A stretch of 64,000 bases of DNA, from NCBI GenBank assembly GCA_039621445.1, contig CP154954.1:2542001-2606000 (forward strand), written 5' to 3'. Source of the DNA: Euglena gracilis. Lineage: Eukaryota. Of the stretch, positions 2,628 to 63,900 are shown in pieces. Below the pieces are notes generated by a model that worked only from the letters and a program-made list of their open reading frames with translations, was not told the DNA's origin and made no database searches. Both the position numbers and the translations under genes were made by a program. Positions within the stretch are counted from its first letter, which is position 1. Each line of letters begins with the position of its first letter.

Positions 2628-2729
2628 CCACCACCACCACCACCACCACCACCACCACCACCACCACCGCCACCACCACCACCACCACCACCACCACCAC
2701 CACCACCACCACCACCACCACCACCACCA
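2628..2729. repeat. (CCA)n microsatellite
   Basis: Near-perfect CCA trinucleotide run; it explains the poly-P/poly-G/poly-V ORFs here. Confidence 0.95.
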
Positions 2730-2744
2730 CGTTTGGAAGCCGCG

Positions 2745-3325
2745 TTAGCGGCTTGGTTCGATCGGAGCCCCTCCTCCTGATGCTGACCGAATTGGACTCC
2801 ACCGACACGCTCCGACTGCTGGGTACCCCTGTCCCGGCCTCGTTCGACCACGACACCTGCGTTGTGCTGCCCCCCACTGCGGTGGCCTGGGCCCTCAGCC
2901 ACAAGGCCCGCAACCGGCTGCAGCACGCGCTCAACGGCAACCCACCCCCGACGCAACGCCCCGGCCTCCTCGACCGGCAGCAGCTGCAGAAGCTGCAGGA
3001 GGCGGGCAAGCTGCGTGCGGCTGGCTGGACGCTTCCCGCCGCTGTCGACAACAAGCTGCCGGTGCGGGTGTACGACACTCGCATCCCGAAGCCGAAGGAG
3101 TGGCTGCTGCAGCTGGCAGCCGACCTCCGACGCCTGGACGAGTCCGACCAGGCTTGGGTGGTGGGAGGCGATTTCGCCTCGGGAGCCGACCTGACCGATG
3201 CGGACGTCGCGGCGTGCCCCGACTCGAAGCGATGGTCGGACGAGCCCCGCCATCTGGTGATCCCGCCGCGACCTCACCTGCGGGAGCTGGTCTTGGCCCT
3301 GCGGCGGCGCGCCGAGGTGGAACAC
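2745..3325 (+). CDS. Possible coding fragment of unknown function (host exon or other element), abutting the break point of element D
   Basis: GC3-rich open frame (LLLMLTELDSTDTLRLLG...LRRRAEVEHL) with protein-like composition; no domain recognised. Confidence 0.35.
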
Positions 3326-5653
3326 CTGTCTGCATGCCGCTGTTGCAGAGGTGATTTTGCAGGCGCGCAAGAGGTCATTCACTTTGCAAGCAGATAAACA
3401 AAAACGAAGCAAGGTGAATTGCACATGCGATTGAGGTAGGTGCTGAAGTACTGTGCAAGAACGTCGGATGTCTGCAATGCGCTTATTCCAAACTTCGTCA
3501 CAGAAGCGGTCATCTTGGGGGTGGTGGACAGGGACCCCCAAAACTTTCAAACCAGAACCAGCAACAAAGGCGGTCAGTGGTATTTGATGTAAGGGGCTGT
3601 CGTGTGGCGTGCCAGGGGGAATGCAAGGGACGCCTTCTGTTGATGTGAACGCTGGTCCCCACAATCGACATTTTGCAGGGTTTACGGCCAACCCAAGCGT
3701 GGCTGCCTCGCGAATCAGGAAGGCAAGGGCATTGTGCAGTTGGGCTGGCGATCCCAGCAGATGGGCGTCATCCAAGTACCATCCCTGCCATTCGACCAAC
3801 GGTGAGAGGCCCTCACAAAGGTCTTGCACTCCCCAGGCGAAAGCTGCTGGTCCACATGGGTCGCCTTGCTGAGCCCCCCTCTGGGAAGGCAGACAATGGT
3901 TTCCACAATACAGCTTGCTGTGTTGGGCGTAGCACGAATCCAGCCAAGGGCACACTTCTGGGCATCGTCTACGGATGGATTGCAGGATTTTTTCCCGTGA
4001 CAAAGAGTTGAAGGCATTCCTGAAATCCACTTGAAGCAGCCCCCAGCGATTGTCTCTGTCTGAGTGCAAAGTGTCCACCATTTGTTGGATTCCCATTGCG
4101 ATCAGTGGACAAGCATTCGGCACACCAACGCCACATTGTGGAGGACTCAGTTCTTTCAAAGCGTTTACCACTGTGGGATGACGCATGAGGCATTTGCCAA
4201 CCAATCGGCGAAGGGTTTCCCCTGCTGCGATTGGGCGAGTGTCTTCATCACACACCGTGTTCTCCACAAGGTTTCCAAAAGCATCCTCTTCCATTGCTGT
4301 TTGTTTGTTCTGTTTTCGCAGAGGTGTCAACCTGGCTGAGGAAAGAATTGGGGCCATGCCGGGGTGAACACCATTTGTAATTGCCCGACAGATGAAGGTA
4401 TCAAGCCCTTCGAGGAGGTCATCTCCACAAGCCCCTGGGTAGTCTCCAACCATGGCCTTGAGGTGGTCAGGTCTCAGGCCAGAAGGACCCGGTGCGGATT
4501 CCTTTGGGAACCCGAATATGGCTTTGCGCAAATTTTGCAATCGTTCTTTTGTGCTTTCTGGGTCCGAAGGAAAGGTGATCGTTTGGGAAGGGTCGGACAC
4601 CGGGATGCGCGGTGGAGGCTCTTGTGGGTGAAGGTCACGCAGCCTTTGAATGACTTTTGGGTCATTGCTGTTCTGAACCCCCTCAGAGGTGAGCTCTCGG
4701 CAGGCTTTTGAAATAGCCCCGTGGCCAACAAGGCTTTCAATGCGGGAAAGGAACCGTTCTTCAGTGGCCTTGGCAGCGAGTGCTGTTTTTTGCCTTGTCT
4801 GTCTGCCTTGTGGCTGTTGTGGGAGACTGGAGTCCAACCAAGAATCAAACACGGGACGGGTGAGATACAGGCGAGCTCGTTCTGCCATTTTTCTCCCCAC
4901 CATCGCCCAGTTCGATCGCCCGCCACGCTGCAGAGGACAGAGCACGGCTTTGGGGAAGGCCCACAAGGCGTGCAGGGTTTCCCAGCCAGGTTCCCTGTTG
5001 AAATGCCTCAACAATTGCAAGTAGGTTTGATTGACATTCAGGAGGGCTCCACGCGGCAGGTATACAAGGGTGCCCCGATCATCAAAAGAAATTTCCTCAA
5101 AAGTGGGATGAAGGGATGGTGGGCATGGAGCAGAGAATGGCGTAACCCCGGCAATGTGATTTTGGCCAATGGGGGTTGGTGGGGGTCTGGCTGGGGCTGG
5201 TGACGATGCTGCTGCGGTTGTTGCCACAGAGGTTGGTGGGGGTCCCGCGAGGGCTAGTGACGATGTTGCTGCGGTTGTTGCCACTGAGGATGAAGAGCTG
5301 GCACCCAAAGGGAGATTGGAGAAGTTCAGGAAGGGCGTCGCCTGATTTGCTTGCATCCAAATGGCCCCAACATCTGACGGGGGGAAGGGTCCTGGTTCTT
5401 GTGTGCCAATTGGGTTCTCCATGATGACCGTGGAGCACATTGAGGGGAGGCCTTGTTGGCCAAAGAACAATGGACCCGGCAGATTTGGGAACCAAGATCC
5501 CCTTTCCAATGGTGGAACTGCGGGTGGTGGTGCGGATGGGGGGATGGAAATTTGTGATGCTGGCGCCATGTCAACGTCCTCACCCGACACCGATGGGTGC
5601 CCTGCGGACGGCGGTGCAGCAGGAGGGATTGAGGTTTGTGATGTTGGCGCCAT
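3325..5653 (-). pseudogene. Reverse transcriptase of element D, 3'-truncated
   Basis: Complete RT core within ORF 2561..5653; the ORF portion below ~3325 is read-through into unrelated DNA. Confidence 0.9.
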
Positions 5654-5690
5654 GTCAATATCCTCACCCGGGACAGATGGTGGGTTTGTA

Positions 5691-5746
5691 GGAGGCCTGT
5701 TGTTACAGTCAAAGACCCCGCAGGTAAGTAAAGACCGACCTCGGCC
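5691..5746 (-). other. Degenerate 2A-like peptide (GRGRSLLTCG-VFDCNNRPP) in frame upstream of the RT ORF of element D
   Basis: The N-terminal half matches GRGSLLTCG of the 2A preceding RT in A/B; the DVEENPGP core is lost. Confidence 0.6.
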
Positions 5747-6074
5747 TGCCCCTCCGATGCTGCTGCTAGGGTAGGCTGTGTGCTGTCTCTCGCAGAAATG
5801 TAAGGCACCAGCACTTTTAATTGTTTGGCCGACGTTGGGTGGTTTCTTCCAGTCACCGGAGACGGAACCTTGGGGTTGTCCGGTTTATTTTGCTGAGGTG
5901 GGAAGGTTGCAGGCCAGTAGAATCCGGCAGAACTGGCTGGCTGGGGGGCCATTGTTGCAGACCAAAAAGTGGATGTGCTGTCTGGCTGGGGGGCCACTGT
6001 TTTAGTCCAAAATGTGGAGGAACATGGTTTGAGAGTTTGTCGGGGGCTTTTCAGGCTGAGAGCAAAAATGGTGT

Positions 6075-14465: not shown

Positions 14466-17400
14466 TTAACGGAGGACGTGCTTGGGTTGTAAGAGGTGGA
14501 ACACTTCTCGGAGCAAGGCGATGGCCACATTTTGGTAGATTTCCGCTTGCTTGGTTTCGCGCTCAGCGCCCTGTTGCCAGGACGATGCGCGTTTGGCCAC
14601 TCTGCTCAGTGTCTTGGCCGTTTCCGGTCCCATGCCACCCCATGTCCCGAGGGCGAAAGGTGTGAAGCCCCAACCTGCTTGCTGACATGGCACGTTGTAT
14701 TTCTGCTTTTTGGCGTCCTCCCTCCTCTTCAGGAAGGATCTCCAGCGTTCGCGCGTCGCTGTGTGTTCTGCCGCTTGCCATCCGTGGCAGACGGTGACGT
14801 CCAGCGCCGTCGGCTTCCCCTCGGACCAGCAGTCCAGCAGGAGGTCCGCCGGGCGTAGGTGACTGTCTCGGGCCGTTGGCAGGGAAACTTCCTTCTGCAC
14901 CCGGTGACCGCTGTTGGACAAGGTTTGAAACAGAGCGTCCTGAACAGCGTTGTGCCGGGCTGAGAAGTTGTTCCTGCGGCAGCAAAGCAGGTGGTCGCCT
15001 TCCTGGTCCAGAGGCTGGCCGCACCCTGTGCACGGCTGGCTGACGTCCACCAGCACCGGAAGCCCTAACCACCACTTCAGTCCCAAGGTGTACTCCTCGC
15101 TAGAGAAGGTGGTGTGGGAGTTGTTGGAGGGGGTGGCCGCCATCCACCCGTGTCCGAACCCCGTGGCTTGTTCAAGGAGGCGGTTCTGGTCGCGAGGCCG
15201 GGCCTGGTCCACAAGGCCGCCCATCGCCTTTTTGCCCAGCTCGTGGTTCCACCACTTTTGCCTCCGGGGTTCTTGGTCCGCGGAGGCGAGTCGTTGTGGG
15301 TCTGTGAGGAAGGTGGTGACCGTGGCATGGTTGGCTCCTAGCCTGCCCCGGAGGTCGTCCAGGACGGGCGCGACCAGGGGTAGCTGCAGGCCGGATGCGT
15401 AGTCGGGCACACCCACGCGCCTGGCCCCGTCTGAGTAGAAGTCTGCAAGACAGGAGATCCTGGCTGCGGGCTGAGTGCAGGACGGGACGCGGAGGCCGCA
15501 GCCCCCGCTGGATAGGGGCAGCGACGCTTGGGTCTGCTGTTGTGGGTTCAGTGCCGTGCCCAGTATGTCCTCGAAGGCGTTCATGATGACCTCCGAGCAG
15601 CCTGTAATCTGATCTTGGCTGCCATACGAGTCGGACGCGCGTAGGAGGTGGTTCACTTTGCAGCCGTCTAGGCAGCTCCGCAGAAGGTGATGTGCCACCT
15701 GGGCGTCGGTGAGGGACGTTATGGTAGATGAGGCCTTCTCGATCTTGGGCAGCATCCGCCCACGCTTTCTTAGTGGTGTCGGAGGACGCGGGGTGGTCTA
15801 CTGGGATTCCGAGCACGGTAATGCCTTCCCCTGGTGACCAAGGGACCACTTGCAATCTGTCGCAACTGGGTGCACTCCGCGCTCCCGGGCCCCACATGAC
15901 GCACTTCTGCAGGTTGAGGCGAGGCCGATGCGGTGGGACTCTTGCAGCAGGAAACGGAGGCAGTGTTCAATCCTGTCGGGGGTTCCGACCAGGAGGCCGT
16001 CGTCCAGGTACCAGCTGTTCCATAGCAGCTGGCCGTCCCTGGTTATCTGGTCCAGCAGCGGCTGCAGCGCCAGGGCGAACCCGATGGGGCCCAGAGGGCA
16101 GCCCTGGTGTGTGCCCCTCTGGGAAAGGATGGTGCGGCCCCCGCAGAAGAGGGGGACGGGCCCGCTGTATGCAAACCTCAGGAAATTGAACAGACTGGGT
16201 GTACGGGTCTCGGCCTCTGTGAGGATCGCCCCTCGGTCAACTGTGTTGAAAGCATTGGAGTAGTCCACCTGGAGGGAAACCCAGGGTGAGGTGTCCCCCA
16301 GCTGAAGCACGAGGTGCTGCATGCCCAGGGCAACGGCCTCGGCGGCGTTCCGTACCCCAACCCCGACCTGGGTGGGGGCGAGCGTTGCAACCTCCGACCG
16401 GGCATGTGGTGTCTGGAGCAGTGTTTTCCCTACCAGGCGGCGGATGGTCTCCCCAACCGCCACTGGCCGCACCCCGTTGTCCTTCTTGCGGAGTGGGGTC
16501 AGATTCGCGCAGCACCAGGCCGCGGCGTGGTGCGGGGGTAGTAGCTGGCCGTCAATCCAGAACTGGGTCAGCCGCGCAAGGGCTGTGATCAGCTTGGCTC
16601 CTCGGCCCGGCCTACGAAGACAGTCTTGGAGGTGGCTGGGCCGCAGGCCCGACGGGCCTGCGGCGGAACCCCGTGGGAAACGGCGGATGGCCTCCTTCAG
16701 TCTGTCCTCCCATTCCGGGATGTGGTTCTCAGGGAAGGGCTTAACATGTCGCGGGAGGCGGTTGGTGTCCACCTGTCTGCCGCTTGGGTGCAACTTCTCC
16801 AGGGCAGCCCAGACATCCGGATCATCCGGTTGGTGCGCGCCCTCAGAGAGCAGTAGCTGGACTGCCTTCGCAGACGCCCCTCTTCAGCGGTGAGGGTGCG
16901 CACACCCGTCTCGTGATGGCCTCACTGAGGGCGGTCGGCTGCGTTCTGGAGCGCTTTTCCGCCCTGGTTTCCACGACGGAGTGTCGAGCCTGTGCGTCTT
17001 TATTGCCTCTGTCAGAAGGGTGCCGTAGTCCCCCTCGCGGAACAGTTTGGTACGCCTCAGCAGGATGGACTCCAGCTCCGCTGCCGGCGGTGGTTTGGTA
17101 GTCGACACCGGTCGGAGGACGAGTTTCGGGAAGGATAGGACGCTGAATAGAGCAGCGTCCGAGGGTGCGTGCGTGTATGCGTTGATGGCATCTGCCAAAG
17201 TGTCAAAGACAGGTTGCTGGAAGGCCGAGGGCAGGTGAATAAGGGTCGAGATTCTTTGTTGGAGGACGTGGGTGATGTCGCAAGGGGGAGTGCCCACGAC
17301 CAGATTGTGTGCGGGCCGTCCCCGGAGGTTGGACTCCTGCCCCGCGCTGTCGATAACTACCGCGCGGCGTCAAGTTCCGGGAGCCAGGTCCAGAAAGAGG

Positions 17401-17995: not shown

Positions 17996-18189
17996 GTCCC
18001 CTAGGCGGAAGACTTCGCCGCCATGAGTGGAGCGGCGTTCTATGATAAGGCGTTGTTGGCCAAGGGAGAGGAGCGGTGCAAGGGGGTAAGGGGAGTGCGC
18101 GTGGCGCGAGAAGTGCCGTCCGTGGTCAGCGCCCCGGTGGGGACCCGGGGGGCCGGGCGCCGCATGGGCTGCCGCTGCCGGTGTGGCAA

Positions 18190-18585
18190 ATCCGTAGGGC
18201 TGTGGTCGACCATGGGGGCCGGCAGCAGCGCTGTCCCCCGGGCCCGGTAGATGGGGCATCGCGGTAAGGTCACGGAAAGCGAGGAGAGGCGCCGCAGGCC
18301 GGCCAGCGCGGTGGACCACTCCGGTGCGAGGAGGATGATGTTGCCCCCAAATCGAAGGACGTGTTCCAAAACACGGGGGAGCAGGGAGAAGGGTGGGTTG
18401 CACCACAGCGGGTTTGGCAAGTTCCAATTCTGGAGGAATGCATCCTCCCTTGATGACCAGAAGGCGTCCAGTTGGGTGTTATTTTGGTCGGCGAAAGCGT
18501 CGATGGTGGGCGGGTTATGGGGGGACAGAGCCCGTACCACCGCCTGGAACCACTCGGTGTCCAGCATGAAGTCTTCGCGTGGTGC
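18190..18585 (-). CDS. Phage Dam/DIRS-like DNA N6-adenine (amino) methyltransferase domain, 2A-delimited
   Basis: PTIDAFADQNN (SAM-binding), DAFLQNW, LWCNPPFS (NPPF at 18388-18399), IILLAPEW; put in frame with the upstream 2A by adding one base to a 7-G run. Confidence 0.85.
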
Positions 18586-18623
18586 GAGGGGGGGAGAACG
18601 GATGAAGCCCGGCCGGAGCTCGT

Positions 18624-18677
18624 GGGGCCGGGGTTGCTCTCCACATCTCCCGCAGTGAGGATGTCTGCGCCCCTGCC
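18624..18677 (-). other. 2A peptide GRGADILTAGDVESNPGP (element A, before the methyltransferase)
   Basis: Canonical DVExNPGP. Confidence 0.9.
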
Positions 18678-18919
18678 GCTCCGAGGCCGCGGGGGAGCTA
18701 ACAGGCGGCGGCAGCCGGCGGCCTGGCGGCGAAGTGTGGAGGTGATGAGGCGCCCACGCGGGGCTCCCTGTGAGTCTCTGGGGGGGGAAGCACGTGGACG
18801 TGGAGTGGAGGTGAGGCCCCGGGGGGTGCCGGTGCCGGGCTGCTGGGCCCAAGAGCGGACGCTCCCCGTCTGGGACGCGTGGAGTCATCGTCGTCGGCAT
18901 CGTCATCCTCCGGGTCGCT

Positions 18920-19372
18920 ATCGACGTCAGAGAGAGACGGTGGTTGGCAGATCTGCATGTGGGCAACTATGGGCGCTGGGTAGGGGGTCGCAGTCGACCA
19001 TCCGCACATTTGGCAGTGTACCAGCCACCACTCGCCGTTTGGGAGGGACTCCAAGTGCTGTAGCCTCCAGCGCCACGAGTCTTCTCTTATGGAGGGGAGA
19101 GAGAAAATGTTTCCCATGGGCCTACCCGCCTGGCATTGATGGGACTGCATGCCTTGGAGGGACGACAGGTTGACGTGCTGAGAGCACAAGAGGCATCTCG
19201 CAAATTCGGACCCTGCCGACGCGAGGTGTGCTGCCGTCCCCGACGACGAGGGGCCGGCGGTTGCCGGGGTGAGCAGACGTAGCCACCGCCAGTGTTGGCC
19301 AGTCCAGTAGATCTCCTCCCAGACGTCGTCGGGCGCCAGGGGGGGGGATGGGCTCGCCGGTCCCCCCGGGCG
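18920..19372 (-). CDS. 2A-released module with two Trp-rich CxxC..H..C zinc fingers (BED-like), element A
   Basis: VWEEIYW..FARCLLC..MQSHQC and WRW..WLVHCQMC..IVAHMQIC, then an acidic tail; conserved in B. Confidence 0.65.
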
Positions 19373-21183: not shown

Positions 21184-24182
21184 TTATCGGAGAATGTGCT
21201 TGGGTTGAAGGAGGTGGAAGACTTCGCGTAGCAGGGCGATTGCAACGTTCTGGTAGATCTCTGCCTCCTTTGTTTGACGTTCCGCTCCCTGTTGCCAGGA
21301 GGAGGCGCGTTTCGCCGCCCTGCTCAGGGTTTTGGCCGTCTCAGGTCCCATGCCCCCCCACGTCCCGAGGGCGAAGGGCGTGAAGCCCCAGCCTGCTTGC
21401 TGGCATGGGATGTTGTACTTTTGCTTTTTGGCCTCCTCCCGTCTCTTCAGGAAAGATCTCCACCGTTCGCGGGTGGCCGTGTGTTCCGTCGCCTGCCATC
21501 CGTGGCAGACGGTGACGTCCAGTGCCGTCGGTCTCCCGTCAGACCAACAGTCCAGGAGGAGGTCAGCCGGGCGGAGGTGGTTATCTCGTGCCGTTGGCAG
21601 GGCAACCTCCTTTTGCACCCGCTGTCCGCTGTTAGACAAGGTTTGGAAAACCGCGTCTTGCACAGCGTTGTGGCGGGCGGCGAAGTTGTTCCTGCGACAG
21701 CAGAGGAGGTGGTCTCCCTCCTTGTCCAGGGGCTGGTTGCATCCCGTGCATGGTTGGCTGACATCGCTTAATACCGGGAGGCCCAGCCACCACTTCAGCC
21801 CCAAGGTGTACTCTTCGCTGGAGAAAGTGGTGTGGGAGTTATTTGAGGGGGGTGCCGCCATCCAACCGTGTCCGATACCTGTAGCCTGTTCCAGGAGGCG
21901 GTTTTGGTCCCGCGGTCTGGCGTGGTCCACTAGATCATCCATGGTCTTCTTGCCCAGCTCGTGACTCCACCACTTCTGCTTCCGGGGCTCTGAGTCCGCG
22001 GAAGCGATGCGTTGAGGGTTGTTGAGGAAGGTGGTGACGGTGGCGTGATTGGCCCCTAGCCGGCCCCTGAGGTCGTCCAAGACAGGCGTGATGAGGGAGA
22101 GCTGTGGGGAGGTTGCGTATCCAGGAACACCGACACGTCGTGCCCCATCAGAGTAGAAATCTGCAAGGCAGGAAATCCTGGCCGCCGGCTGTATGAAAGA
22201 TGGGACGCGGAGGCCGCAGCCGCCACTCGACCAGGGCAGGGAAGCCTGGGCCCGCTGTTGTGTGTTGAGAGCCGTGCCCAGTACGTCCTCAAAGGCGTTC
22301 AAGATCACCTCAGAGCAGCTTCTCACCTGGTCCTGGCTGCCATACGAGTTAGAGGCACGCAGCAGGTGGTTTACCTTGCAGCCATCCAGACAGCTTCGGA
22401 GCAGGTGATGTGCTACCTGAGCGTCGGTGACGGACGTGATGGTGGATGAAGCCTTCTCAATTTTGGCGGCGGCAATCTCCCACGCAGTTTGTGTGGTGTC
22501 CGTAGAGGCTGGATGGTCGATTGGGATACCCAGGACGGTGATGCCCTCCCCTGGGGTCCAGGGGACCACTTTCATCCTCTCACAGCTCGGCATACTCCTG
22601 GCTCCCGGGCCCCACAAGACGCACTTCTGCAGGTTCAGGCCGAGCCCCACTCGATGGGACTCTTGCTGCAGGAAACGTATGCAGTGCTCAATCCGGTCTG
22701 GGGTCCCGACCAGCAGGCCGTCGTCCAGGTACCAGCTGTTCCACAGCAACTGGCCATCTTTGGTGATCTGTTCCAATAGAGGCTGTAGCGCAAGTGCGAA
22801 CCCTATAGGGCCCAAAGGGCAGCCTTGGTGTGTGCCCCTTTGTGATAGGATGGAGCGACCACCACAGAACAAGGGAACGTGCCCGCTGTACGCAAATCTC
22901 AGGAAATTGAACAAGCTGGGGGTGCGCGTTTAGGCCCCGTTAGGATCGCCCCGCGGTCCACCGTATTGAACGCATTGGAGTAGTCCACCTGGAGAGAAAC
23001 CCAGGGCGATGTGTCCCCCAGCTGGGTGACCAGGTGTTGCATCCCCAATGCGACGGCCTCAGCTGCGTTTCGTACCCCAACCCCAACCTGGGTAGGGGCG
23101 AGGGCGGCAACCTCGGATCTGGCGTTTGGTGTCTGGAGCAGGGCTTTCCCCACCAAGCGGCGGATGGTTTCCCCAACCGCAACCGGTCGTACCCCGTTAT
23201 CCTTTTTGCGGAGGGGTGTCAGATTCGCACAGCACCAGGCGGCGGCGTGGTGGGGCGGTAGCTGGCCGTCCACCCAGGCTTGTGTCAGGAGAGCGAGGGC
23301 AGTGACCAGCCTTGCTCCCCGGCCTGGTCTCCGCAGGCAGTCTTGGAGGTGGCTCGGTCGCAAACCAGATGGCCCCGGCGCCGACCCCCGCGGGAAGCGT
23401 CGAATGGCTTCCCTCAGTCTGTCCTCCCAGTCAGGGGTGTGGTTCTCGGGAAATGGGCGGACGTGACGCGGCAGGCGGTTGGTGTCAACGTTCCTGCCGA
23501 TAGGGTGTAGCTTTTCCAGGGCGGCCCAGACCTCTGGGTCGTCAGGTTGGTGCGCCCCCTCGGACAGCAGAATCTGGACAGCCTTGGCCGAGGCCCCCTC
23601 CGCAGTGAGGGTGCGTATGCGTCTATTCATTGCTTCACTGAGGGTGGTGGGCTGTGTCCTGGAGCGTTTTTCCGCCCTGGTTTCAACAATGGAGTGTCGT
23701 GTCTGGGTGTCCTTCTGGGCCTCTGCCAGCAGGGTGGCATAGTCCCCTTCGCGGAAGAGCCTGGCACGTCTCAGCAAGATGGACTCCATTTCTGCAGGTG
23801 GCGGTGGTTTGGTTGTTGACGCGGGGCGTAGGACAAATTTGGGGAAGGAGAGCACGGCGAACAGCGCCGCGTCCGATGGTGCGCGTACGTAGGCCGTGAT
23901 GGCGTCTGCCATGGTGTCGAAGACATATTGTTGGCAGGCGGAGGGTAGGTGGATGAGGGTCGGAATTCTCTGTTGGAGAACGTGGGTGATGTCGCAGGGG
24001 GGAGCCCCAATCACCAGGCTATGCCCAGGCTGCCCTCGGAGATTGGATTCCTGGCCTGCGCTGTCGATGATCATTGCCGCGTCGCGATCCGGGTGAGCGA
24101 GGTCCAGGAAAAGGTTGTCATGCTCCCTGGCGTCTGTTTCGGTTGGCGCGCCACGAGGGGATGTTGGTGCCGGGCGCTTGGC
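21184..24182 (-). CDS. RT-RLE protein of element B (one frameshift near 22930, possibly a sequencing error)
   Basis: ORFs 22899..25364 and 21184..22914; YLDD at 22720-22731; complete RLE motifs; closely similar to A. Confidence 0.92.
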
Positions 24183-53398: not shown

Positions 53399-56300
53399 AT
53401 GCAGCACGCGCTGGCCGAGGAGGTGAGGTGCCCCGTCTGCCTGGACCTGTTCGAGGACCCCGTCGTGCTGGCCTGCCCCCATTCTGTGTGGCCAGGGCCG
53501 GGCTGGGGCTGGGGCTGGGATGGTGTGTCCGTGAATTGGGAGGTCCGTGTGTTGGCGCTTTTTTTCCCCCTTCCGGCTCAATATTGCGACTGGCGACGCT
53601 CTTGTCCATTCTAATATTTTTGTCTCCCATGTTTCTTGGTGATGTCCTCATGTCGGTGCATTCCGTCTCCGGGAGGAAATTGGGCTGGGATTTGACCACT
53701 TTTTTTTCGTTGATTGTGTTGCTTCTTCTCCGCCAGCGGTGTGTCGCCCGACCTTGCCCTCGTCGGAGGTGTGCGGCGCAGCAAATGGCGTTCCAGCAGA
53801 CTGCCGCCCCGGCTCCGCCACCACAGCTCACAGGGCCTCTTTTGCCCTCTTTTATTATTTTGGGGGGTTGCCCATTGGGGCCCACACCAATGCCCATGGG
53901 GGGAGCATGGAGCATGCCCCTGTGGGCATTGGCTTGCGGAGTGTGCACCAAAATAACCCTCTCCCCGCGGCATTGTGATGCTCGATAAGTTTTCATTGGG
54001 ATGCCCTGTGACCGCCATGCCTTGCGAACGCGTGTAGTCCCTGGCAATGCCGACCTGTCAAATGACCATTTCTGACAGGACAAGGGAGAAGGGAGAGCGG
54101 TGCAAGAAAATCCAACGCTGAAAAACCTCGAAGGTCAGCCCTCGGAACTCAGAGAGTTCATGAAACATTCAGCCAGCGACAAAATGTGCATTTCCTGGAA
54201 AGCTCCCTAAAATTCCCACAATTTGTGATTTTGATGCCATGGAATTTCGCCTGTGCATCGTTTTATGGATTCTCTCCATCGGGTGTGTCTGTTCCAAAAC
54301 CACTTTTTGGGGGGATTGGATTTTGGGGTTGGGGTGGTATGGTGCACCAATTGGAGGAAAAAAAGGGGAGACCTGGTGAGGGACACCCCCAAACCAGATT
54401 TGGTCTCAGTTGTTTCTCCTGTTCATGGCCCGACTCTATCAGAGTGATCCTTGGGGGGGAGCATTCTTGGGCTGACAAATCATTATTTTTTGGGTGCCTC
54501 CGTGAATTGCACTGACCTGAGCCACAGGCAAATATTAATTCTATGACAATTTTTTTTGTGTGTAGTTCCCAATCTCCCCCAAAATGTGCATTTTTGTGCG
54601 AAATGGGTGTGATTTTGTTTGTGGAAGTTGTAATATCCGCCCCAAAAAATATTCTGTCGCCCTGGAAGGTGCCCTCGGGTGGCTTCTCATTGGGGGGGGG
54701 GGGTTGTGTTTGGGGTGGACACTGGCTTTGTTTTCGGTTGACAACATTTCTCTTCCCCGCAAGCATCTCTCGCCCATCGATGGTGCAGTGCGGGTCACAG
54801 TCCTCCGACTCTGTGTCAGGCTTTGGGGTTTGGTTGGGGGTTCCGGCGACGCTTTTCTGTGCTTTCCGTTATTTTTTTTTTGCTTTTCGCCTGGGGGGGG
54901 GGGGGGGAGGGGGCCCTGGGGCCGGCGTTCCCGTGCCCGCTGTGCCGGCAGCCCACGCCCCTCCCAAAGGGCGTGGCCGCGCTGCCCCGGAACCACCGGC
55001 CAGAGCCATCGTGGCGATGGCAATGTTTCCATTTGTAGCAGCCTCTCATTTGTTGCCCCCCCCCCAAGGTGGATCCAGGGATTCCCGCAACACTATGGGT
55101 GGTTGGTGGGGGGGGGGTCGACCACCCCCTCCCACCCCCATCCTGGGGGTGGGGCGGGGGCCGTCCCCCCCCCCCAACAAGGCCTTCCCATATTTTTTCT
55201 TTTATCAATTTTTTTCTTGAGCAGGTGCCATGGTGGGGTGTCGGCCCCCACCTCCCAGGTGGGTGTGGGGGTTGCGCCTCCCCCCCCAGGCCTTCCGATA
55301 CAACCCTTGGGGGGGGGGGGGTTCCACAAGCGTACTAAGGGGTCGGTGGTCCCCTTCCGTGCCCCCCAGAGAATGCCAAAAATCGGTCGAATTTGCCATC
55401 TTTATCTATTTATTTTTATGTCCTCGGCGACTTCTGATTTGGGTGAAACCATTGTAAACCACGTGAAGCATTTTGGAAAATCACGTAAATGGCTTGAAAT
55501 CACCTAAAATAACAAATGAGAATTAAGGGTGATAAATATTTCTCTCTTTTTTCTCCCACCGGTTTTTCGATGTCTTCTGGAAATTTTTAAATTTTGAAGA
55601 ATCTTTCATTATATACCCCAAATTTCCCTGATTTTTTTTTGGCCGTACGAATGAAAAAACTTTGTCAATATGCGTGATGAAGCGTTTCCCAAAAACAACG
55701 GCGTATGGCCGATGCACCCCACGGTGCCAAGCCTTCCATGCAGGATGAGCCCGGGGCGGGCAGCCCACCCCGTTGCCTTGCCCCCACCTGGGCAACGTGG
55801 TGGACCAGCTGCGGAGGCACGGGTTGCCCCCGGCGGCCACTGCTCAGACCCAGGGGATGGGGCGGGCCCCCGTGTGCAGGAATTTCGACCAGACTGTGCT
55901 CCGGCGACACCGAACAAGCAAGGTCGCAACAAAACGCCGGCTGTCGCTGTCTGTGGCATCCGTGGTGGAATTTCTTTTCATGGAGAAGAGCGCACAGCAT
56001 GGCGGCGCTGTGGGCCACACGGACACGGATGACACCAACCAACGTATGTGGTTGGCGTGGCCTCACACAGAACGGTCGGCACGGAATCCAGGTTGGCGTG
56101 ACAGGGTCCATCCCCAACCACGCCCTGCCGTTGGGCGCAAAAGGGAGGACGGTCATCGGGGGCAATGTGGGCGCGTGGCAACCGCAGGCGGCAGTCTGCC
56201 GCTCGCACCAGCCGCAGATCAGCCCCGTCGTGGCCGCCGCCGTCACCACCGTTGTCGCCGTGGTCAAGCGCGTCTGGTCAGCCATGCCCGGCCCAGCATC

Positions 56301-58495
56301 CTCCAATATTTGCCCCAAATCAATGCAAAATAGCCCCCAAATTAGCAAAAAAAAAATCCAAATGGCCAAGGCGGGTGTAACGTTGGAGATTTGTGGGAAA
56401 ATTATCCTGAAAAGGGTTTAATTCTTCAAAATGTGCAAAAAAATGCAAGCATCGCCCAGCATCATTAGAGGTGCTTGGCCGTGGGGCAAGGTGCCGCTGT
56501 GCGGGTCGCTGCTCTGCCCTTCCTGCCACGCGGCGGTGCACATCGGGGCCCTGGCCCGCCACCCCGTCACCGACGTGAGCAGTGGGGCTGCCGGGCATCC
56601 CTGGCGTCGAGGGATGGCACGAACCCAGACCCTGACCCCAACCCCCACCCTGCCATCCCATCTCCCACCTGACCCTAACCCTAATCCCGACTTTAACCTG
56701 TACCAAACCACCCCCTCCCCCCCCCGCACCTATTCCCCCTATTCCCTGCACCCCTATTCCACCCAACCCCCCCCACCCCACCCTCCCTCACCGAGTTTGT
56801 AAACCCTCCCCCCCCAATAATACCCCCCCAAATAATCCCCCCCCCTCGGGCCCCCTTCGGCCACCGAATTAATACCCCCCTCAAAATCTCGGGCCAACGA
56901 CCCGGACTTTGACCAGAAGTTTTGGGTGAAAATCACAATCTCTGACAACAAGCTGCAAAAAAATCAATTTTTCTGGATCATCTGTCCTCCAAAAATGCTA
57001 AATTTTATGAGAAAGGACAAAAATGACCCCAAAGGGGGGTTTTGGGTGCTATTTTGGGTCTTACGGGACTTCGAAAAATTTCGAAAACTTTGGGGTGCTA
57101 CCAGGTTTTGAATGGCGCTGAGCTCTTAATAAGCGTGCACCCACCCCTTCATTGACCCCCATATACGCTGGCCCACTCCATGGAGCTCTTTTGACTGAAA
57201 TGCAAGGGTTTTGTGCCCGAAACGTGAGGCCAGGGGGGCAAAAGACGCTGATTTTTGGCTCAAGAAACACCTTTTCCGGGTCTGGGAGGCCAAAAAAACA
57301 TGGTTTCGGGCATAAAAAATGTCGATTTTTTTCGACTTTTTTGACCCGGTTTTGACCCAAAGTCAATGGGGTTGGCGGCCCAAAACGGGGCGCTGGCGGG
57401 TCGAAAAACGCTCATTTTCGGCTCAAAAACAGTTTTTCCGGGTCCGGGGGGCCAAAAAAACATCGTTTCAGGCAAAAAAATTTCAATTTTTTTTTGGTAT
57501 TTATTTCGACTTTTTTGTCCCAAAACGGTTACATCTGACATTTGGAAAAAGTGCGCAAAATGTCCCAAATTGGCGGGAAAACGGCGGTGTCTCGGGCCAG
57601 CCGCACAGTTGCGGGGAAATCAAAATACCGGCAGATGGGGCATTCCAAGGGCTTCAAATTAGGTCTCCGGACATTTCCTTTGATTTTGTATCATTTTCAA
57701 GAGATTTTGAAAATTGAGTTTTGACCCTCCCCCGCCCCCCGAAAACGGCTGAGTCGGACAGAGGGAAAAGTGTACAAAACGGCCATCTGGGCCGAAAAAC
57801 GGCCGTATCTCGGGCTACGCGGGGCGTTGCGGGGAAATCAAAATACCGGTAGATAGGGTGTTCCAAACGCTCAAATCAGGGAGACACCTGCCCCCCCCCC
57901 AACCCTCGCCCTCCACCTCCTTGCTAGGGTGCAGGGCCATACCCGCCAGCTCCTGGGCAGGCTGCTTCTTAATAAAAGTTGCACCCCGGGGGATGCTGAT
58001 GGACAGGCAGAGATATTTCGCCCCCCTCCAGGCAGAGTACTAAGTGAGCGTTGGTTTTGTACAAAGGGGGGGTCGACCCCAGGGAGGGAGGGAGGGAGGG
58101 AGGGAGGGAGGGTCCGGACCCCCCACCCTTGCAGTCGAGAGCACCCTGGAACCAAAGAAATTCTTCGCACCCTGGGGGGGGGGTCTGGCTTTCGGGTGGG
58201 TAGTGCTAAATGTACATATAGCACACCCCCAGGGGGCGGCCCAATAATGGTCATTTTCAAAGTGAAAGCTGGCGGGGCTCGGCCACGACCCAATACCCTG
58301 GATTTGTTTGCCCTGGGCAGACACCCAAAGCAAAGCACCCCCCCCCCCGCCGGTGGGGCGCCAAAAGGAAGCCTGCTCCCGGGGCTGCTCGACCAGCAGC
58401 AGACGGTGGTCGAGCCACCGCAGCAGCGGGCTGCCGGGCTGCTGGCCCGGCTGCCGGGGGCGAAGGCTGCAGCTGCCCGGCTGCTGGCGCGGGCT
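53399..58495 (+). CDS. TRIM-like RING/B-box E3 ligase gene; exons ~53399-53489, 53762-53829, 54924-54997, 55786-55841, 56273-56173 (minus strand), 56499-56576, possibly 58372-58495
   Basis: Spliced product [34 protein letters not shown]...AFPCPLCRQPTPLPKGVAALPRNHHLGNVVDQL...ICGWCERQTAACGCHACGSLLCPSCHAAVHIGALARH: complete C3HC4 RING plus B-box; candidate trans-splice acceptor CGCAG at 53361-53365. Confidence 0.8.
53490..53761 (+). other. Euglenid non-canonical (non GT-AG) intron
   Basis: Starts GGCCAGGGCCGGGC (CAG at +4..+6), ends GCCCGACCTTGCCCTC; the ends base-pair and removal restores HSVCRRC. Confidence 0.8.
57230..57870. repeat. Dispersed element containing satellite-like monomers; inverted relative to 62105-62650; relatives at ~34240-34380 and ~35990-36420
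   Basis: TTTTGACCCAAAGTCAATGGG and GGGGAAATCAAAATACCGG blocks recur. Confidence 0.8.
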
Positions 58496-60666: not shown

Positions 60667-60831
60667 CGTACAACAAGGGGGGGGGGCGGGTAATGTTTTT
60701 ATGCATTATTTCTCTTTTTTTTGTATTTTTCTTCCTTTGCAGATTCAGCGTACAACAAGGGGGGGGGGCGGGTAATGTTTTTATGCATTATTTCTCTTTT
60801 TTTTGTATTTTTCTTCCTTTGCAGATTCAGC
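60667..60831. repeat. ~82-bp tandem duplication
   Basis: CGTACAACAAGGGG...TTTGCAGATTCAG occurs twice. Confidence 0.85.
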
Positions 60832-62499
60832 TTTAGTTGCATGGGAAAGGACCGCAGTCCAGGTCTCTACTTGACAACCAGGACCGGAACCTCCAGTGCC
60901 GATCCAACAGGTTGGTGGTCAGCCACCTGGCCCGTTCAGGAAGGAAGTTCATGGAAATGGAGTTCCACGGCTTGCTGCGGGAGCCAGCCTTCTCTTCAAG
61001 CAAGGCCGCCCTCCCCCCAAGCAAGCATGGGCAGCATATGGAATCCAGTTGTGCAACCCAAATCCTACAGGAAACCAATGTGGAATTGCGGCAATGAGGA
61101 TAAGGTGCTTCTAAACAGAGATTTTTTTGAGTTTGGGGACTGGAGGGGTGAGTGGGTGGGCAACGCCACCCCCCTCCCGAGGGGGCCCTTCCCCCCTCGG
61201 GGGGGGGGGGGCCCCCCCCGAGGAGGGGGCCAAGGGGCCGGGTTTCTGCTTTTTTTTTCAGCCTGAAGAGCCGGAGAAAAATTCTGGACCCAGGTTTAAC
61301 CCCCAAGATCCAAGGTTGGGTCCTTCCGAGCCCGCCACCACTCCCACACACAGGTTTTCTGAGATTTCATTGCAGCCCTGGGGGCCCCGGAGAGACCACT
61401 CGGGGGGTGGGTGGGTGGGTGAGTCCGGACCCCCCGGGTCCTTAACAATTCTTCTACTGCAATGGTCTGTGGTTGATTCCCTTTTCCTAATTTGGCTTGC
61501 GTGTTCTTGTTTTGTCAGAAATTTCCCCATGATTTCGACCCCAAATGGCTCTTCTGGGGTCAGACATTTGGGGAGGGGGATGTTTTTGTCCTCAGGTGCT
61601 TTTGGAACCAAAAAAGGCCACTTTGACACATACAGACAAATGGATATGCTTACATATGTATGACCCCCCCTAATATGGGAAGCTCCGCAGACATGAGGTA
61701 AGTGGCAGGGGGGTCCTCCCCACCCCACCCCCTAGGGGGTAAAGTGGTAGGGGGGGGGGGTCGCTGAGCTCTTATCCCTTTATGGGTAAGAGCGAAGCTT
61801 ACCCCTGGGGGAAAACCCCCCCCGAACCCCCCCCCCTCCCCCCCCCCCCTCGGGGCCACCTCGGGAACCGGCGGATTATCACCATGATCCCGGCCCCGTT
61901 CCCGAAATTTTTTTTTTCAGTCACGAGCGACTGGATTCCTAGTTTCCGAATCACCTGGGTTTGACCCCCAACTCCCCGCCAGGCCCGAGTTATTCACGCG
62001 CGAAGGGGTCCAAACTGGGTAGGATTCGCCAACCCCCCCTGGATAAGCCCCCCCCCCTTTGGACGGCCAAAAAATGTCAATTTTCAAAATATCTCCAAAA
62101 TGAAGCCAAACCAAAGGAAATGTCCGGAGACCTAATTTGAAGCCCTTGGAACGCCCTATCTACCGGTATTTTGATTTCCCCGCAACTCCCCGCCTAGCCC
62201 GAGATACGGCCGTTTTCGGCGCAGACGGCCGTTTTGTACACTTTTCCCTCTGTTCGACTTAGCCGTTTTCGGGGGGTGGGGGGTCAAAAAATCGATGTTT
62301 TCAAAATTTCTCGAAAATGATGCAAAATCAAAGGAAATGTCCAGAGACCTAAATTGAAGCCCTTGGAACGCTCTATGTACTGTGATTTTGGTTTCCCCGC
62401 AACTCACCGCCCAGCCCGAGATACGGCCGTTTTTTGGCCAATTTGGGCCATTTCAAGCCATTTTGTACACTTTTCCCTCTGTTCGACTTGGCCATTTTC

Positions 62500-63900
62500 G
62501 GCCAAAAAGTCGAAAAAAATCGAAAAAATTTTTTTCGCCCGAAACGATGTTTTTTGGCCTCCCGGACCCGGAAAAACCGTTTTCGAGCCGAAAACGAGCG
62601 TTTTTCGACCCGCCGGGGCCCCGTTTTGGGCCGCCGACCCATTGACTTTGGGTCAAAACCGGGTCAAAAAAGTCGAAAAAAATCGAAAAAATTTTTTTTG
62701 CCCCAAAAGATTTATTTTTGGCGTCCGGGACCCGGGAAAACTGTTTTTTGTGCCGAAAACGAGCGTTTTTCGACCCGCCGGCGCCCCGTTTTGGGCCGCC
62801 GACCCATTGACTTTGGGTCAAAACCGGGTCGAAAAAGTCGAAAAAAATCGAAAAAAAATTTTTTGCCCGAAACGATGTTTTTTGGCCTCCCAGACCCAGA
62901 AAAACTGTTTTTCAGCCGAAAACGAGCGTTTTTCGACCCACCAGCGCCCCGTTTTGGGCCGCCGACCCATTGACTTTGGGTCAAAACCGGGTCGAAAAAG
63001 TCGAAAAAAATCGAAAATTTTTTTTGCCCGAAACGATGTTTTTTGGCCTCCCAGACCCGGAAAACTGTTTTTGAGCCGAAAACGAGCGTTTTTCGACCCG
63101 CCAGCGCCCCGTTTTGGACCGCCGACCCATTGACTTTGGGTCAAAACCGGGTCGAAAAAGTCGAAAAAAATCGAAAAATTTTATTTTGCCCGAAACGATG
63201 TTTTTTGGCCTCCCGGTCCCGGAAAAACTGTTTTTGAGCCGAAAACAAGCGTTTTTCGACCCGCCAGGGCCCCGTTCTGGGCCGCCGACCCATTGACTTT
63301 GGGTCAAAACCGGGTCGAAAAAGTCGAAAAAAATCGAAAAATTTTATTTTGCCCGAAACGATGTTTTTTGGCCTCCCAGACCCGGAAAACTGTTTTTGAG
63401 CCGAAAACGAGCGTTTTTCGACCCGCCAGCGCCCCGTTTTGGACCGCCGACCCATTGACTTTGGGTCAAAACCGGGTCAAAAAAGTCGAAAAAAATCGAA
63501 AAATTTATTTTGCCCGAAACGATGTTTTTTGGCCTCCCGGTCCCGGAAAAACTGTTTTTGAGCCGAAAACAAGCGTTTTTCGACCCGCCAGCGCCCCGTT
63601 TTGGGCCGCCGACCCATTGACTTTGGGTCAAAACCGGGTCGAAAAAGTCGAAAAAAATCGAAAAATTTTATTTTTGCCCGAAACGATGTTTTTTGGCCTC
63701 CCAGACCTGGAAAAACTGTTTTTCAGCCGAAAACGAGCGTTTTTCGACCCGCCAGCGCCCCGTTTTGGGCCGCCGACCCCGTTGACTTTGGGTCAAAACC
63801 GGTCGAAAAAGTCGAAAAAAAATCGAAATTTTTTTTTTTTGCCCGAACATAAAATGTTTTTGGCCTCCCGGGACCCGTAAAAACTGTTTTCGAGCCTAAA
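62500..63900. repeat. Tandem satellite, ~160-165-bp unit, about 8 copies
   Basis: CCCATTGACTTTGGGTCAAAACCGGGTC recurs at ~62640, 62803, 62967, 63127, 63290, 63453, 63614, 63780. Confidence 0.95.

What the first reader, a model, noticed from the sequence alone, without database searches (positions are those of the whole stretch)
56160..56500. One exon of the TRIM-like gene lies on the opposite strand
Seen: the first half of the B-box (TRLTTATTVVTAAATTGLICGWCERQTAACGCHA) is encoded on the minus strand at 56273-56173, between plus-strand exons. It joins in frame to 56499 to give CHACGSLLCPSCHAAVH. The intron's pairing arms now appear as direct repeats (GGGGCAATGTG ~56159-56169; GGGGCAAGGTG ~56483-56493). 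Inference: a local inversion that inactivates this allele, a misassembly, or, more excitingly, an invertible exon switch or structure-guided trans-splicing between opposite-strand RNAs.
Basis: partly seen in the sequence, partly recalled or inferred. Interest (0 to 1): 0.7.

Follow-up and report, generated by a model that had tools for sequence, protein, structure and literature searches.

The report
Flipped exon in Euglena TRIM-like gene
One small exon of a Euglena RING/B-box (TRIM-like) gene copy really does lie on the opposite DNA strand, most likely through a small inversion in a defective extra copy of the gene.

Summary
A Euglena gracilis transcript-derived protein (P0003, EG_transcript_7647, 548 aa) carries the two B-box halves side by side. 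Mapped on the window, its residues lie on the plus strand at 53399-53488, about 53762-53820, 54913-54996, 55761-55850 and 56500-56583. Residues about 100-125 map only to the minus strand, 56285-56178 (E 9e-9).

The flipped exon (56273 to 56173) carries its own nonconventional-intron signals on the minus strand. These are CTG-N5-purine at its acceptor, and N3-CAC plus an arm pairing 10 of 11 with the plus-strand arm before 56499. That pairing sits in the published register for Euglena nonconventional introns; chance is about 1e-4.

A 433-nt short-read contig from run X1 matches 55911-56343 exactly, which argues against misassembly.

The copy looks defective:
- It is only about 60-97% identical to P0003 per exon.
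- It lacks B-box2 and the first part of the coiled coil (aa 154-250).
- Skipping the 101-nt exon shifts the frame.
- No RNA reads lay on the exon in two runs.
- No flanking inverted repeat exceeds chance.

Best reading: a real inversion of 128 to 644 bp in a probably dead paralog (0.6). Trans-splicing or a DNA switch has no support, but trans-splicing is not excluded.

The parts
53399..53489 (+). Exon 1: start codon and the first five RING ligands ([30 protein letters not shown] + first base of the Cys codon)
   Evidence: tblastn with P0003 aa 1-30: 29 of 30 identical, E 5e-14. Partial Pfam RING matches, E 4e-5, below cut-off. Boundary.
53490..53761 (+). Intron 1, nonconventional: GGC-CAG ... 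TTG-CCCTC | G
   Evidence: Junction fixed by the P0003 alignment (V-C-R-x-C). In-register pairing is 9 Watson-Crick + 1 G-U of 11.
53762..53820 (+). Exon 2: (C)RRCAAQQMAFQQTAAPAPP, sixth RING ligand
   Evidence: Aligns to P0003 CRSCAAQQMSFQQT. Its 3' end was chosen from the N3-CAG rule and the frame, so it is inferred.
53821..54924 (+). Intron 2, nonconventional: CCA-CAG ... CTG-GGGCCG | G
   Evidence: In-register pairing is only 5 of 11. Boundaries are inferred.
54925..54997 (+). Exon 3: AFPCPLCRQPTPLPKGVAALPRNH, last RING Cys pair
   Evidence: tblastn with P0003 aa 50-77: 82% identity, E 2e-10.
54998..55785 (+). Intron 3, nonconventional: GGC-CAG ... TTG-CCCCC | A
   Evidence: 6 Watson-Crick + 2 G-U of 11 in register.
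55786..55847 (+). Exon 4: (H)LGNVVDQLRRHGLPPAATAQ, linker after the RING
   Evidence: tblastn with P0003 aa 62-99 at 55761-55850, E 1.8e-7. This sets the left limit for any inversion breakpoint.
55848..55853 (+). Donor signal of intron 4 on the plus strand (ACC-CAG)
56274..56281 (-). Acceptor signal of intron 4, now on the minus strand (CTG-ACCAG, then exon starting with A)
   Evidence: It fits CH'G-N5|R of the published code.
56173..56273 (-). Exon 5, the flipped exon: TRLTTATTVVTAAATTGLICGWCERQTAACGCH(A). It is 101 nt and holds the first four zinc ligands of B-box1.
   Evidence: Translation. tblastn with P0003 aa 82-123, E 9e-9, minus strand only. X1 contig over 55911-56343 is identical to the window.
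56159..56172 (-). Donor end of intron 5 on the minus strand: GCC-CAC-ATTGCCCC (5' pairing arm)
   Evidence: 10 of 11 Watson-Crick pairs with 56483-56493 in the +4..+14 / -16..-6 register.
56483..56498 (+). Acceptor end of intron 5 on the plus strand: GGGGCAAG-GTG-CCGCT (3' pairing arm and 5-nt spacer)
56499..56576 (+). Exon 6: (A)CGSLLCPSCHAAVHIGALARHPVTD(V), second half of B-box1
   Evidence: tblastn with P0003 aa 126-153: 79% identity, E 1.3e-9. Pfam zf-B_box positions 21-41 of 42, E 0.033. Followed by GAG-CAG, or GTGAGC if read as a conventional donor.
56577..57916 (.). Stretch where the exons for P0003 aa 154-250 (B-box2 and the first part of the coiled coil) should lie. None was found. 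Most of it is very high-copy repeat.
   Evidence: tblastn over the whole window and restricted searches. DNA depth from about 600 to 3.3 million in X1 against about 26-35 for the single-copy contigs.
57917..57955 (+). Downstream coiled-coil exon piece (LLARVQGHTRQLL)
   Evidence: tblastn with P0003 aa 251-263: 69% identity, E 0.011 in the restricted search.
58385..58486 (+). Downstream exon (LLDQQQTVVEPPQQRAAGLLARLPGAKAAAARLL)
   Evidence: tblastn with P0003 aa 265-298: 74% identity, E 4.6e-8.
60957..60983 (+). Possible further exon piece (MEFHGLLRE)
   Evidence: tblastn with P0003 aa 298-306: 8 of 9 identical, but E 0.09 in the restricted search. Weak.

Best explanation
The window holds a diverged copy of a Euglena TRIM-like (RING, B-box1, B-box2, coiled-coil) gene whose exons are separated by euglenid nonconventional introns.

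A short DNA segment has been inverted in place. It contains exon 5 (101 nt, first half of B-box1), the last bases of intron 4 and the first bases of intron 5. It spans at least 56159-56286 and at most 55848-56491.

As a result, the intron-4 acceptor signal and the intron-5 donor arm now sit on the minus strand, while their partners stay on the plus strand. The former pairing arms of intron 5 therefore read as direct repeats.

A plus-strand transcript cannot include exon 5. Joining exon 4 to exon 6 drops 101 nt and shifts the frame. The copy also lacks the exons for B-box2. It is therefore most likely a non-functional paralog.

Shown: the strand of each exon, the intron signals, the exact short-read contig, and the missing exons.
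Inferred: that the order was once colinear, that the event was a simple inversion, and that the copy is dead.
For: 1. Colinear homolog. P0003 (eukprot EG_transcript_7647) reads ...AGLICGRCEQQAAACGCQTCGSLLCSPCRAAVHVGALARH... in one piece. Its Pfam domains are RING at 11-60 and two B-box stretches, the best at 162-201.

2. Exon map. tblastn gave one match per exon. Five clear exon matches lie on the plus strand at E 2e-7 or better, and one lies on the minus strand (56285-56178, E 9e-9). No plus-strand alternative for those residues had E below 0.02.

3. Intron signals on the flipped strand.
- The published code is N3-CDG ... CH'G-N5-6 | purine (passages of PMC12501133).
- The acceptor side of exon 5 is CTG-ACCAG|A.
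- The donor side is GCC-CAC, with 10 of 11 in-register pairs to the arm before exon 6.
- The null gave 25 of 400,000 and 95 of 400,000.
- Intron 1 of the same gene pairs 9+1 of 11 in the same register. All 5 acceptor exons start with a purine, and 5 of 6 donor ends have N3-CAG.

4. Real DNA. X1 record 6 is 433 nt, depth 35.1, covers 55911-56343 and has 0 differences and 0 gaps. Neighbouring unique contigs have depth 26-32.

5. Signs of a defective copy.
- P0003 aa 154-250 were not found anywhere in the window on either strand.
- B-box2 is kept in 3 of 3 Euglena paralogs.
- Per-exon identity to P0003 is only about 60-97%.
- Exon 5 is 101 nt, not a multiple of 3.

6. RNA. 0 reads lay in the two bins that hold exon 5 and 0 in the bin that holds nearly all of exon 1 (53402-53602), in X20 (about 5 in 100 of the run read) and X24 (about 56 in 100).
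Against: - All zinc ligands of the RING and of B-box1 are intact in the window copy, and the substitutions against P0003 fall on non-ligand positions. The copy was therefore under constraint until recently, or still is.
- The intron-5 arms are still 10 of 11 complementary, although they would be useless after an inversion.
- The breakpoints were not located. If the left one lies in 55848-55910 or the right one in 56344-56491, the X1 contig does not test the arrangement.
- X1 may be the sample the assembly came from.
- The missing B-box2 exons lie where there is very high-copy repeat, so an assembly collapse could have removed them.
- I could not establish whether the window is from the same species as P0003. 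If it is not, this would be the ortholog rather than a spare paralog.
- RNA sampling was thin.
- Free-register duplex energy of the intron-5 ends is no better than shuffles (z -0.40). Only the fixed-register count is significant.
Confidence: 0.6

Rival explanations
1. Assembly artefact: the exon is colinear in the real genome and a short stretch was inverted, and the B-box2 exons lost, during assembly of a repeat-rich region.
For: The locus is embedded in very high-copy repeats (56216-58024; depths of thousands to millions). Exons for aa 154-250 are missing exactly there. X1 contigs differ from the window by small indels at homopolymers (table 4), so the assembly is not error-free.
Against: A k-mer-based short-read contig of 433 nt matches 55911-56343 exactly, with 262 nt to the left and 70 nt to the right of the exon. 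The flanks share no long inverted repeat that could confuse an assembler.
Confidence: 0.1
2. The inversion is real but the locus is an active gene, or a recently disabled haplotype of one. The window may come from another Euglena species or strain, so that P0003 is its ortholog. The missing middle exons would then be an assembly gap.
For: All ligands in the RING and B-box1 are intact. Exon 1 is 29 of 30 identical to P0003. The database search returned no protein closer than P0003; the next relatives are 43 and 42% identical.
Against: By cis-splicing the reading frame cannot be kept (101-nt exon). No RNA reads lay on exon 1 or exon 5.
Confidence: 0.15
3. Trans-splicing guided by nonconventional-intron arms. 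Exon 5 is transcribed from the minus strand, and its RNA pairs through CACAUUGCCCC / GGGGCAAGGUG (and CAG/CUG upstream) with the plus-strand pre-mRNA. The ends are brought together as in a cis intron, and an intact B-box1 message is produced.
For: Both signals flanking the flipped exon are intact on its own strand and in the exact published register. Pairing works equally well between two RNAs. The coding capacity of exon 5 is intact.
Against: 0 RNA reads on either strand in the bins holding exon 5, and no RNA-supported joint among the 15 joints shown (105 more not shown). Two separate trans events would be needed. The copy lacks B-box2 in any case. My two literature searches on this point listed no report of exons on the opposite strand in euglenid nuclear genes (listings only).
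Confidence: 0.04
4. An invertible DNA segment that exists in both orientations in the population or within cells and switches the gene on and off.
For: Nothing beyond the geometry: a small exon-bearing segment lies between two introns.
Against: No inverted repeat above chance flanks the exon (best score 16; shuffle median 16, 95th percentile 22). The X1 contig runs unbranched through the exon and both near flanks at the same depth as its neighbours. No strand-changing joint appears among the joints shown.
Confidence: 0.03

Closest known systems
Nonconventional introns of Euglena (code 5'-N3CDG ... CH'GN5-6|R, with base-paired intron ends; PMC12501133, passages read; abstracts of PMC6221363, PMC3935182 and PMC4770533 seen in the listing)
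   Same: Introns 1-5 of this gene have the 3-nt spacer, a CAG-type triplet, a 5-6-nt spacer before a purine-initial exon, and in two cases 10-11 bp of in-register pairing.
   Different: For introns 4 and 5 the two ends lie on opposite DNA strands, so they cannot pair within one transcript. Intron 5 uses CAC/GTG and introns 1 and 3 use CAG/TTG, which fall outside the tested CDG/CH'G motif.
TRIM / RBCC proteins; nearest relative is Euglena gracilis EG_transcript_7647 (P0003), with paralogs EG_transcript_7668 and 11060
   Same: Same order of RING, linker (LGNVxDQLRRHG) and B-box1. Per-exon identity is about 60-97%. Animal TRIMs are distant hits (24-25% identity).
   Different: The window copy has one exon inverted and no B-box2 or first coiled-coil exons. 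The C-terminal 240 residues were not found in the window.
Unprocessed (duplicated) pseudogenes disrupted by small inversions
   Same: A diverged copy with introns retained, a local rearrangement, missing exons and no detected RNA.
   Different: No stop codon or ligand loss in the exons that remain, so decay, if any, is recent.
Trans-splicing of exons encoded on the opposite strand (Drosophila mod(mdg4)) and pairing-guided split-intron trans-splicing in Giardia.
   Same: They show that opposite-strand exons, and intron halves that find each other by base pairing, can give one mRNA.
   Different: Those cases use the spliceosome and are documented by RNA. Here there is no RNA evidence, and the intron type is the euglenid nonconventional one.

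Membership tests
TRIM/RBCC-like protein gene | N-terminal C3HC4 RING finger | tested here: met
   Exons 1-3 align to the RING of P0003 (Pfam RING 11-60) with all eight ligands present. The window pieces alone give only sub-threshold Pfam hits.
TRIM/RBCC-like protein gene | B-box zinc finger after the RING | tested here: inconclusive
   The second half matches zf-B_box positions 21-41 of 42 (E 0.033, below cut-off). The first half exists only on the minus strand. Read together they have the same ligand spacing as the B-box1 of P0003. The joined peptide was not scored against Pfam.
TRIM/RBCC-like protein gene | Second B-box and coiled coil | tested here: not met
   P0003 aa 154-250 were not found on either strand of the window. 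Later coiled-coil exons are present at 57917-57955 and 58385-58486.
Euglenid nonconventional intron | 5' end N3-CDG | tested here: met
   5 of 6 donor ends examined have N3-CAG. Intron 5 has N3-CAC.
Euglenid nonconventional intron | 3' end CH'G followed by 5-6 nt and a purine-initial exon | tested here: inconclusive
   Spacer and purine are met in 5 of 5. The triplet is CTG in 2 (introns 2 and 4), TTG in 2 (introns 1 and 3) and GTG in 1 (intron 5).
Euglenid nonconventional intron | Base pairing that brings the intron ends together | tested here: met
   In-register pairs of 11: intron 1, 9+1 G-U; intron 5, 10; intron 3, 6+2; intron 2, 5; intron 4, 3+1. Free-register energies do not beat shuffles except for intron 2.
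Euglenid nonconventional intron | Removal from RNA shown by spliced reads | tested here: inconclusive
   No RNA reads on the exons in X20 or X24. Junctions are inferred from the protein alignment only.
Invertible DNA switch | Inverted repeats flanking the segment, and both orientations present | tested here: not met
   Best inverted similarity equals the shuffle median. Only one orientation was seen in the X1 contig.
Trans-spliced gene | Chimeric RNA joining transcripts of both strands | tested here: inconclusive
   No reads at all on exon 5. Sampling was 5 and 56 in 100 of two runs.

The most novel reading that the evidence does not exclude
The flipped exon is still used. An antisense transcript carrying exon 5 pairs through its intact nonconventional-intron arms with the sense pre-mRNA, and the unknown euglenid machinery joins them in trans. 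This would show that this intron type is recognised purely by RNA-RNA pairing, whether within one molecule or between two.
Probability: 0.04. Interest if true: 0.85.

Novelty: new member of a known kind. Interest (0 to 1): 0.27.

Why it matters
As it stands this is a rearranged gene copy in a repeat-rich Euglena genome, and that is ordinary. It has two modest uses.

First, it gives a clean worked example of the recently published nonconventional-intron code, recovered from protein homology alone, including variants (CAG/TTG, CAC/GTG) outside the tested motif.

Second, it is a natural test case for whether paired intron ends work only in cis. One RT-PCR with copy-specific primers would answer that. 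A positive result would bear on the unknown mechanism that removes these introns.

Tried and rejected
- No whole genome is held for the window, so the colinear paralog could not be sought.
- Rfam over the window gave 0 matches.
- Self-BLAST of 54800-57000 against the window found no second copy of the exon or its flanks.
- A protein search with the minus-strand piece (P0002, longer proteins) scored nothing among 100 candidates. It did not even return P0003, so it was crowded out by low-complexity words and says little.
- Pfam on the long ORFs of both strands found no B-box.
- A metagenome scan with P0003 gave 85 pattern matches, none confirmed. An exact 40-nt pattern from exon 5 gave 0 matches.
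- Earlier findings of this scan: nothing by place, sequence, relatives or words.
- No RNA holder was listed among the 19 runs that hold the stretch.
- Free-register duplex energies of the intron ends do not separate real ends from shuffles in this GC-rich DNA.
- A 17-nt imperfect inverted repeat (56133-56149 / 56299-56315) was considered as the inversion site and set aside, because it scores at the shuffle median.
- An early guess that exon 2 lay at about 53934 (ACGVC) was dropped once P0003 showed the true exon at 53762.
- A conventional GT-AG reading of the exon 5 / exon 6 junction was rejected, because no GT donor keeps the ligand spacing.
- A weak minus-strand resemblance to the end of B-box2 at 56647-56603 (E 0.71) was treated as noise.
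- Literature searches for opposite-strand exons or pseudogenes in Euglena listed nothing relevant (listings and abstracts only).
- Supplements of PMC12501133 (datasets of intron motifs) were not opened. They may show how common CAC/GTG or CAG/TTG ends are.


Full report
**What is there.** The minus strand from 56306 to 56160 reads LEDAGPGMADQTRLTTATTVVTAAATTGLICGWCERQTAACGCHAPTLP. The plus strand from 56500 reads CGSLLCPSCHAAVHIGALARHPVTD.

**Finding the homolog.**
- A protein search with the plus-strand ORF (residues 17-56) returned one hit: P0003, eukprot EG_transcript_7647, 548 aa, 79% identical over 70% of the query.
- The EG_transcript naming occurs in Euglena gracilis papers (listing only).
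- P0003 reads ...TATTTAGLICGRCEQQAAACGCQTCGSLLCSPCRAAVHVGALARHPVTDV.... In a related mRNA the two halves are therefore adjacent and colinear.
- Pfam finds in P0003 a RING (11-60) and two B-box stretches, the best at 162-201.

**Exon map from tblastn of P0003 on the window.**

| P0003 residues | Window coordinates | Strand | Identity | E-value |
|---|---|---|---|---|
| aa 1-30 | 53399-53488 | + | 97% | 5e-14 |
| CRRCAAQQMAFQQT stretch | about 53762-53820 | + | | |
| aa 50-77 | 54913-54996 | + | 82% | 2e-10 |
| HLGNVVDQLRRHG... | 55761-55850 | + | | 1.8e-7 |
| aa 82-123 | 56285-56178 | MINUS | | 9e-9 |
| aa 126-153 | 56500-56583 | + | 79% | 1.3e-9 |
| aa 265-298 | 58385-58486 | + | 74% | 4.6e-8 |

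- Weaker pieces lie at 57917-57955 and 60957-60983.
- No plus-strand match for the first B-box half exists in the window.
- Pfam aligns the plus exon to zf-B_box positions 21-41 of 42, from its first residue (E 0.033, sub-threshold).
- The minus piece alone gave no Pfam hit.

**Introns.**
- The published Euglena code for nonconventional introns is 5'-N3CDG ... CH'GN5-6|R, with pairing next to the triplets. CAG sits at +4 and CTG at -8 (passages of PMC12501133).
- I placed junctions only where the P0003 alignment and the reading frame demand them.

| Intron | Ends |
|---|---|
| 1 | GGC-CAG...TTG-CCCTC\|G |
| 2 | CCA-CAG...CTG-GGGCCG\|G |
| 3 | GGC-CAG...TTG-CCCCC\|A |
| 4 | ACC-CAG (plus strand) ... 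CTG-ACCAG\|A (minus strand) |
| 5 | GCC-CAC-ATTGCCCC (minus strand) ... GGGGCAAG-GTG-CCGCT\|G (plus strand) |

- In the fixed register (+4..+14 against -16..-6) intron 5 forms 10 of 11 Watson-Crick pairs. Intron 1 forms 9 plus one G-U.
- Among 400,000 random site pairs, 25 (whole window) or 95 (gene region) reached 10 or more.
- The arm length of 11 was chosen after seeing the arms. Allowing about ten such choices still leaves roughly 1e-3.
- Free-register duplex energies do not beat shuffles for intron 5 (z -0.40) in this GC-rich DNA. The significance rests on the register, not on energy.
- The flipped exon also carries a canonical acceptor signal on its own strand.

**Size of the inverted piece.** It must include 56159-56286. 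It must lie between the exon 4 donor signal (55848-55853) and the intron 5 acceptor arm (from 56483). That gives 128 to about 644 bp. The breakpoints themselves could not be placed. The best inverted similarity between the flanks (56133-56149 / 56299-56315) scores at the shuffle median.

**Is it real DNA?**
- Nineteen runs hold the stretch.
- In run X1 a 433-nt contig (depth 35.1) covers 55911-56343 with no difference. Neighbouring unique contigs have depth 26-32.
- Run X4, which differs from the window at many sites elsewhere, has an identical contig over 55912-56095.
- This supports the window's order if the breakpoints lie within 55911-56343.
- X1 may be the assembly's own sample.

**Is the copy functional?**
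- Exon 5 is 101 nt, so skipping it shifts the frame.
- P0003 aa 154-250, which include B-box2, are absent from the whole window on both strands.
- B-box2 is present in all 3 Euglena paralogs, whereas B-box1 is already degenerate in one.
- The gap coincides with very high-copy repeat, so an assembly collapse cannot be ruled out.
- Residues 307-548 were not found either and may lie beyond the window.
- No RNA read lay in the bins holding exon 5, in X20 (about 5 in 100 of the run read) and X24 (about 56 in 100).
- Reads near 54890-54913 are G-run artefacts, and those near exon 6 fall on a repeat.
- Against decay: every zinc ligand of the RING and of B-box1 is intact.

**Relation to P0003.**
- Per-exon identity of about 60-97% is too low for the same gene in the same strain.
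- The database holds no closer protein of 301-959 aa. The next are 43 and 42% identical (7 proteins at E 1e-5 or better among 8000 candidates scored).
- I could not determine whether the window's organism is the species of P0003. It is a diverged paralog if it is, and an ortholog if it is not.

**Verdict.** The most likely reading is a real small inversion in a diverged, probably non-functional copy of a Euglena TRIM-like gene (0.6).

| Rival | Weight |
|---|---|
| The same inversion in an otherwise active gene or haplotype | 0.15 |
| Misassembly | 0.10 |
| Arm-guided trans-splicing | 0.04 |
| Invertible switch | 0.03 |

The remainder is left open. My searches found no report of opposite-strand exons in euglenid nuclear genes (listings only).

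Noticed in passing
window 2561-5884 (-), 15798-16883 (-), 18040-18966 (-), 21184-22929 (-): Long ORFs with reverse-transcriptase domains (RVT_1, E 2e-11 to 3e-8) and one with a Dam-like N6-adenine methyltransferase match (E 7e-7). From recall, this combination is known from DIRS-type retroelements.
   Followed up: no
window 62504-63900, with related units at 57265-57494: A 163-bp satellite (8.6 copies, 92% matches). Its units inside the gene's intron region reach summed depths of millions in DNA runs X1 and X4 and are also present in the RNA runs.
   Followed up: partly
window 60667-60831: A perfect tandem duplication of an 82-nt unit (2.0 copies, 100% matches), just upstream of the possible exon piece at 60957.
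   Followed up: no
window 55103-55180: A G-run/C-run palindrome (81 nt, 79% self-complementary) inside intron 3. Similar G/C homopolymer blocks recur across the window and attract poly-G RNA-read artefacts.
   Followed up: no
window 56603-56647 (-): The minus-strand translation WGLGSGSGFVPSLDA resembles the end of B-box2 of P0003 (FGLHQGHGCVPVEEA; 7 of 15 identical, E 0.71 in a 1.8-kb search). It could be a decayed, also inverted relic, or just noise.
   Followed up: partly
window 53762-53820 and 54925-54997: Introns 1 and 3 of this gene use CAG paired with TTG (G-U at the inner position) rather than the tested CAG/CTG motif. This may be a natural variant of the published code.
   Followed up: partly
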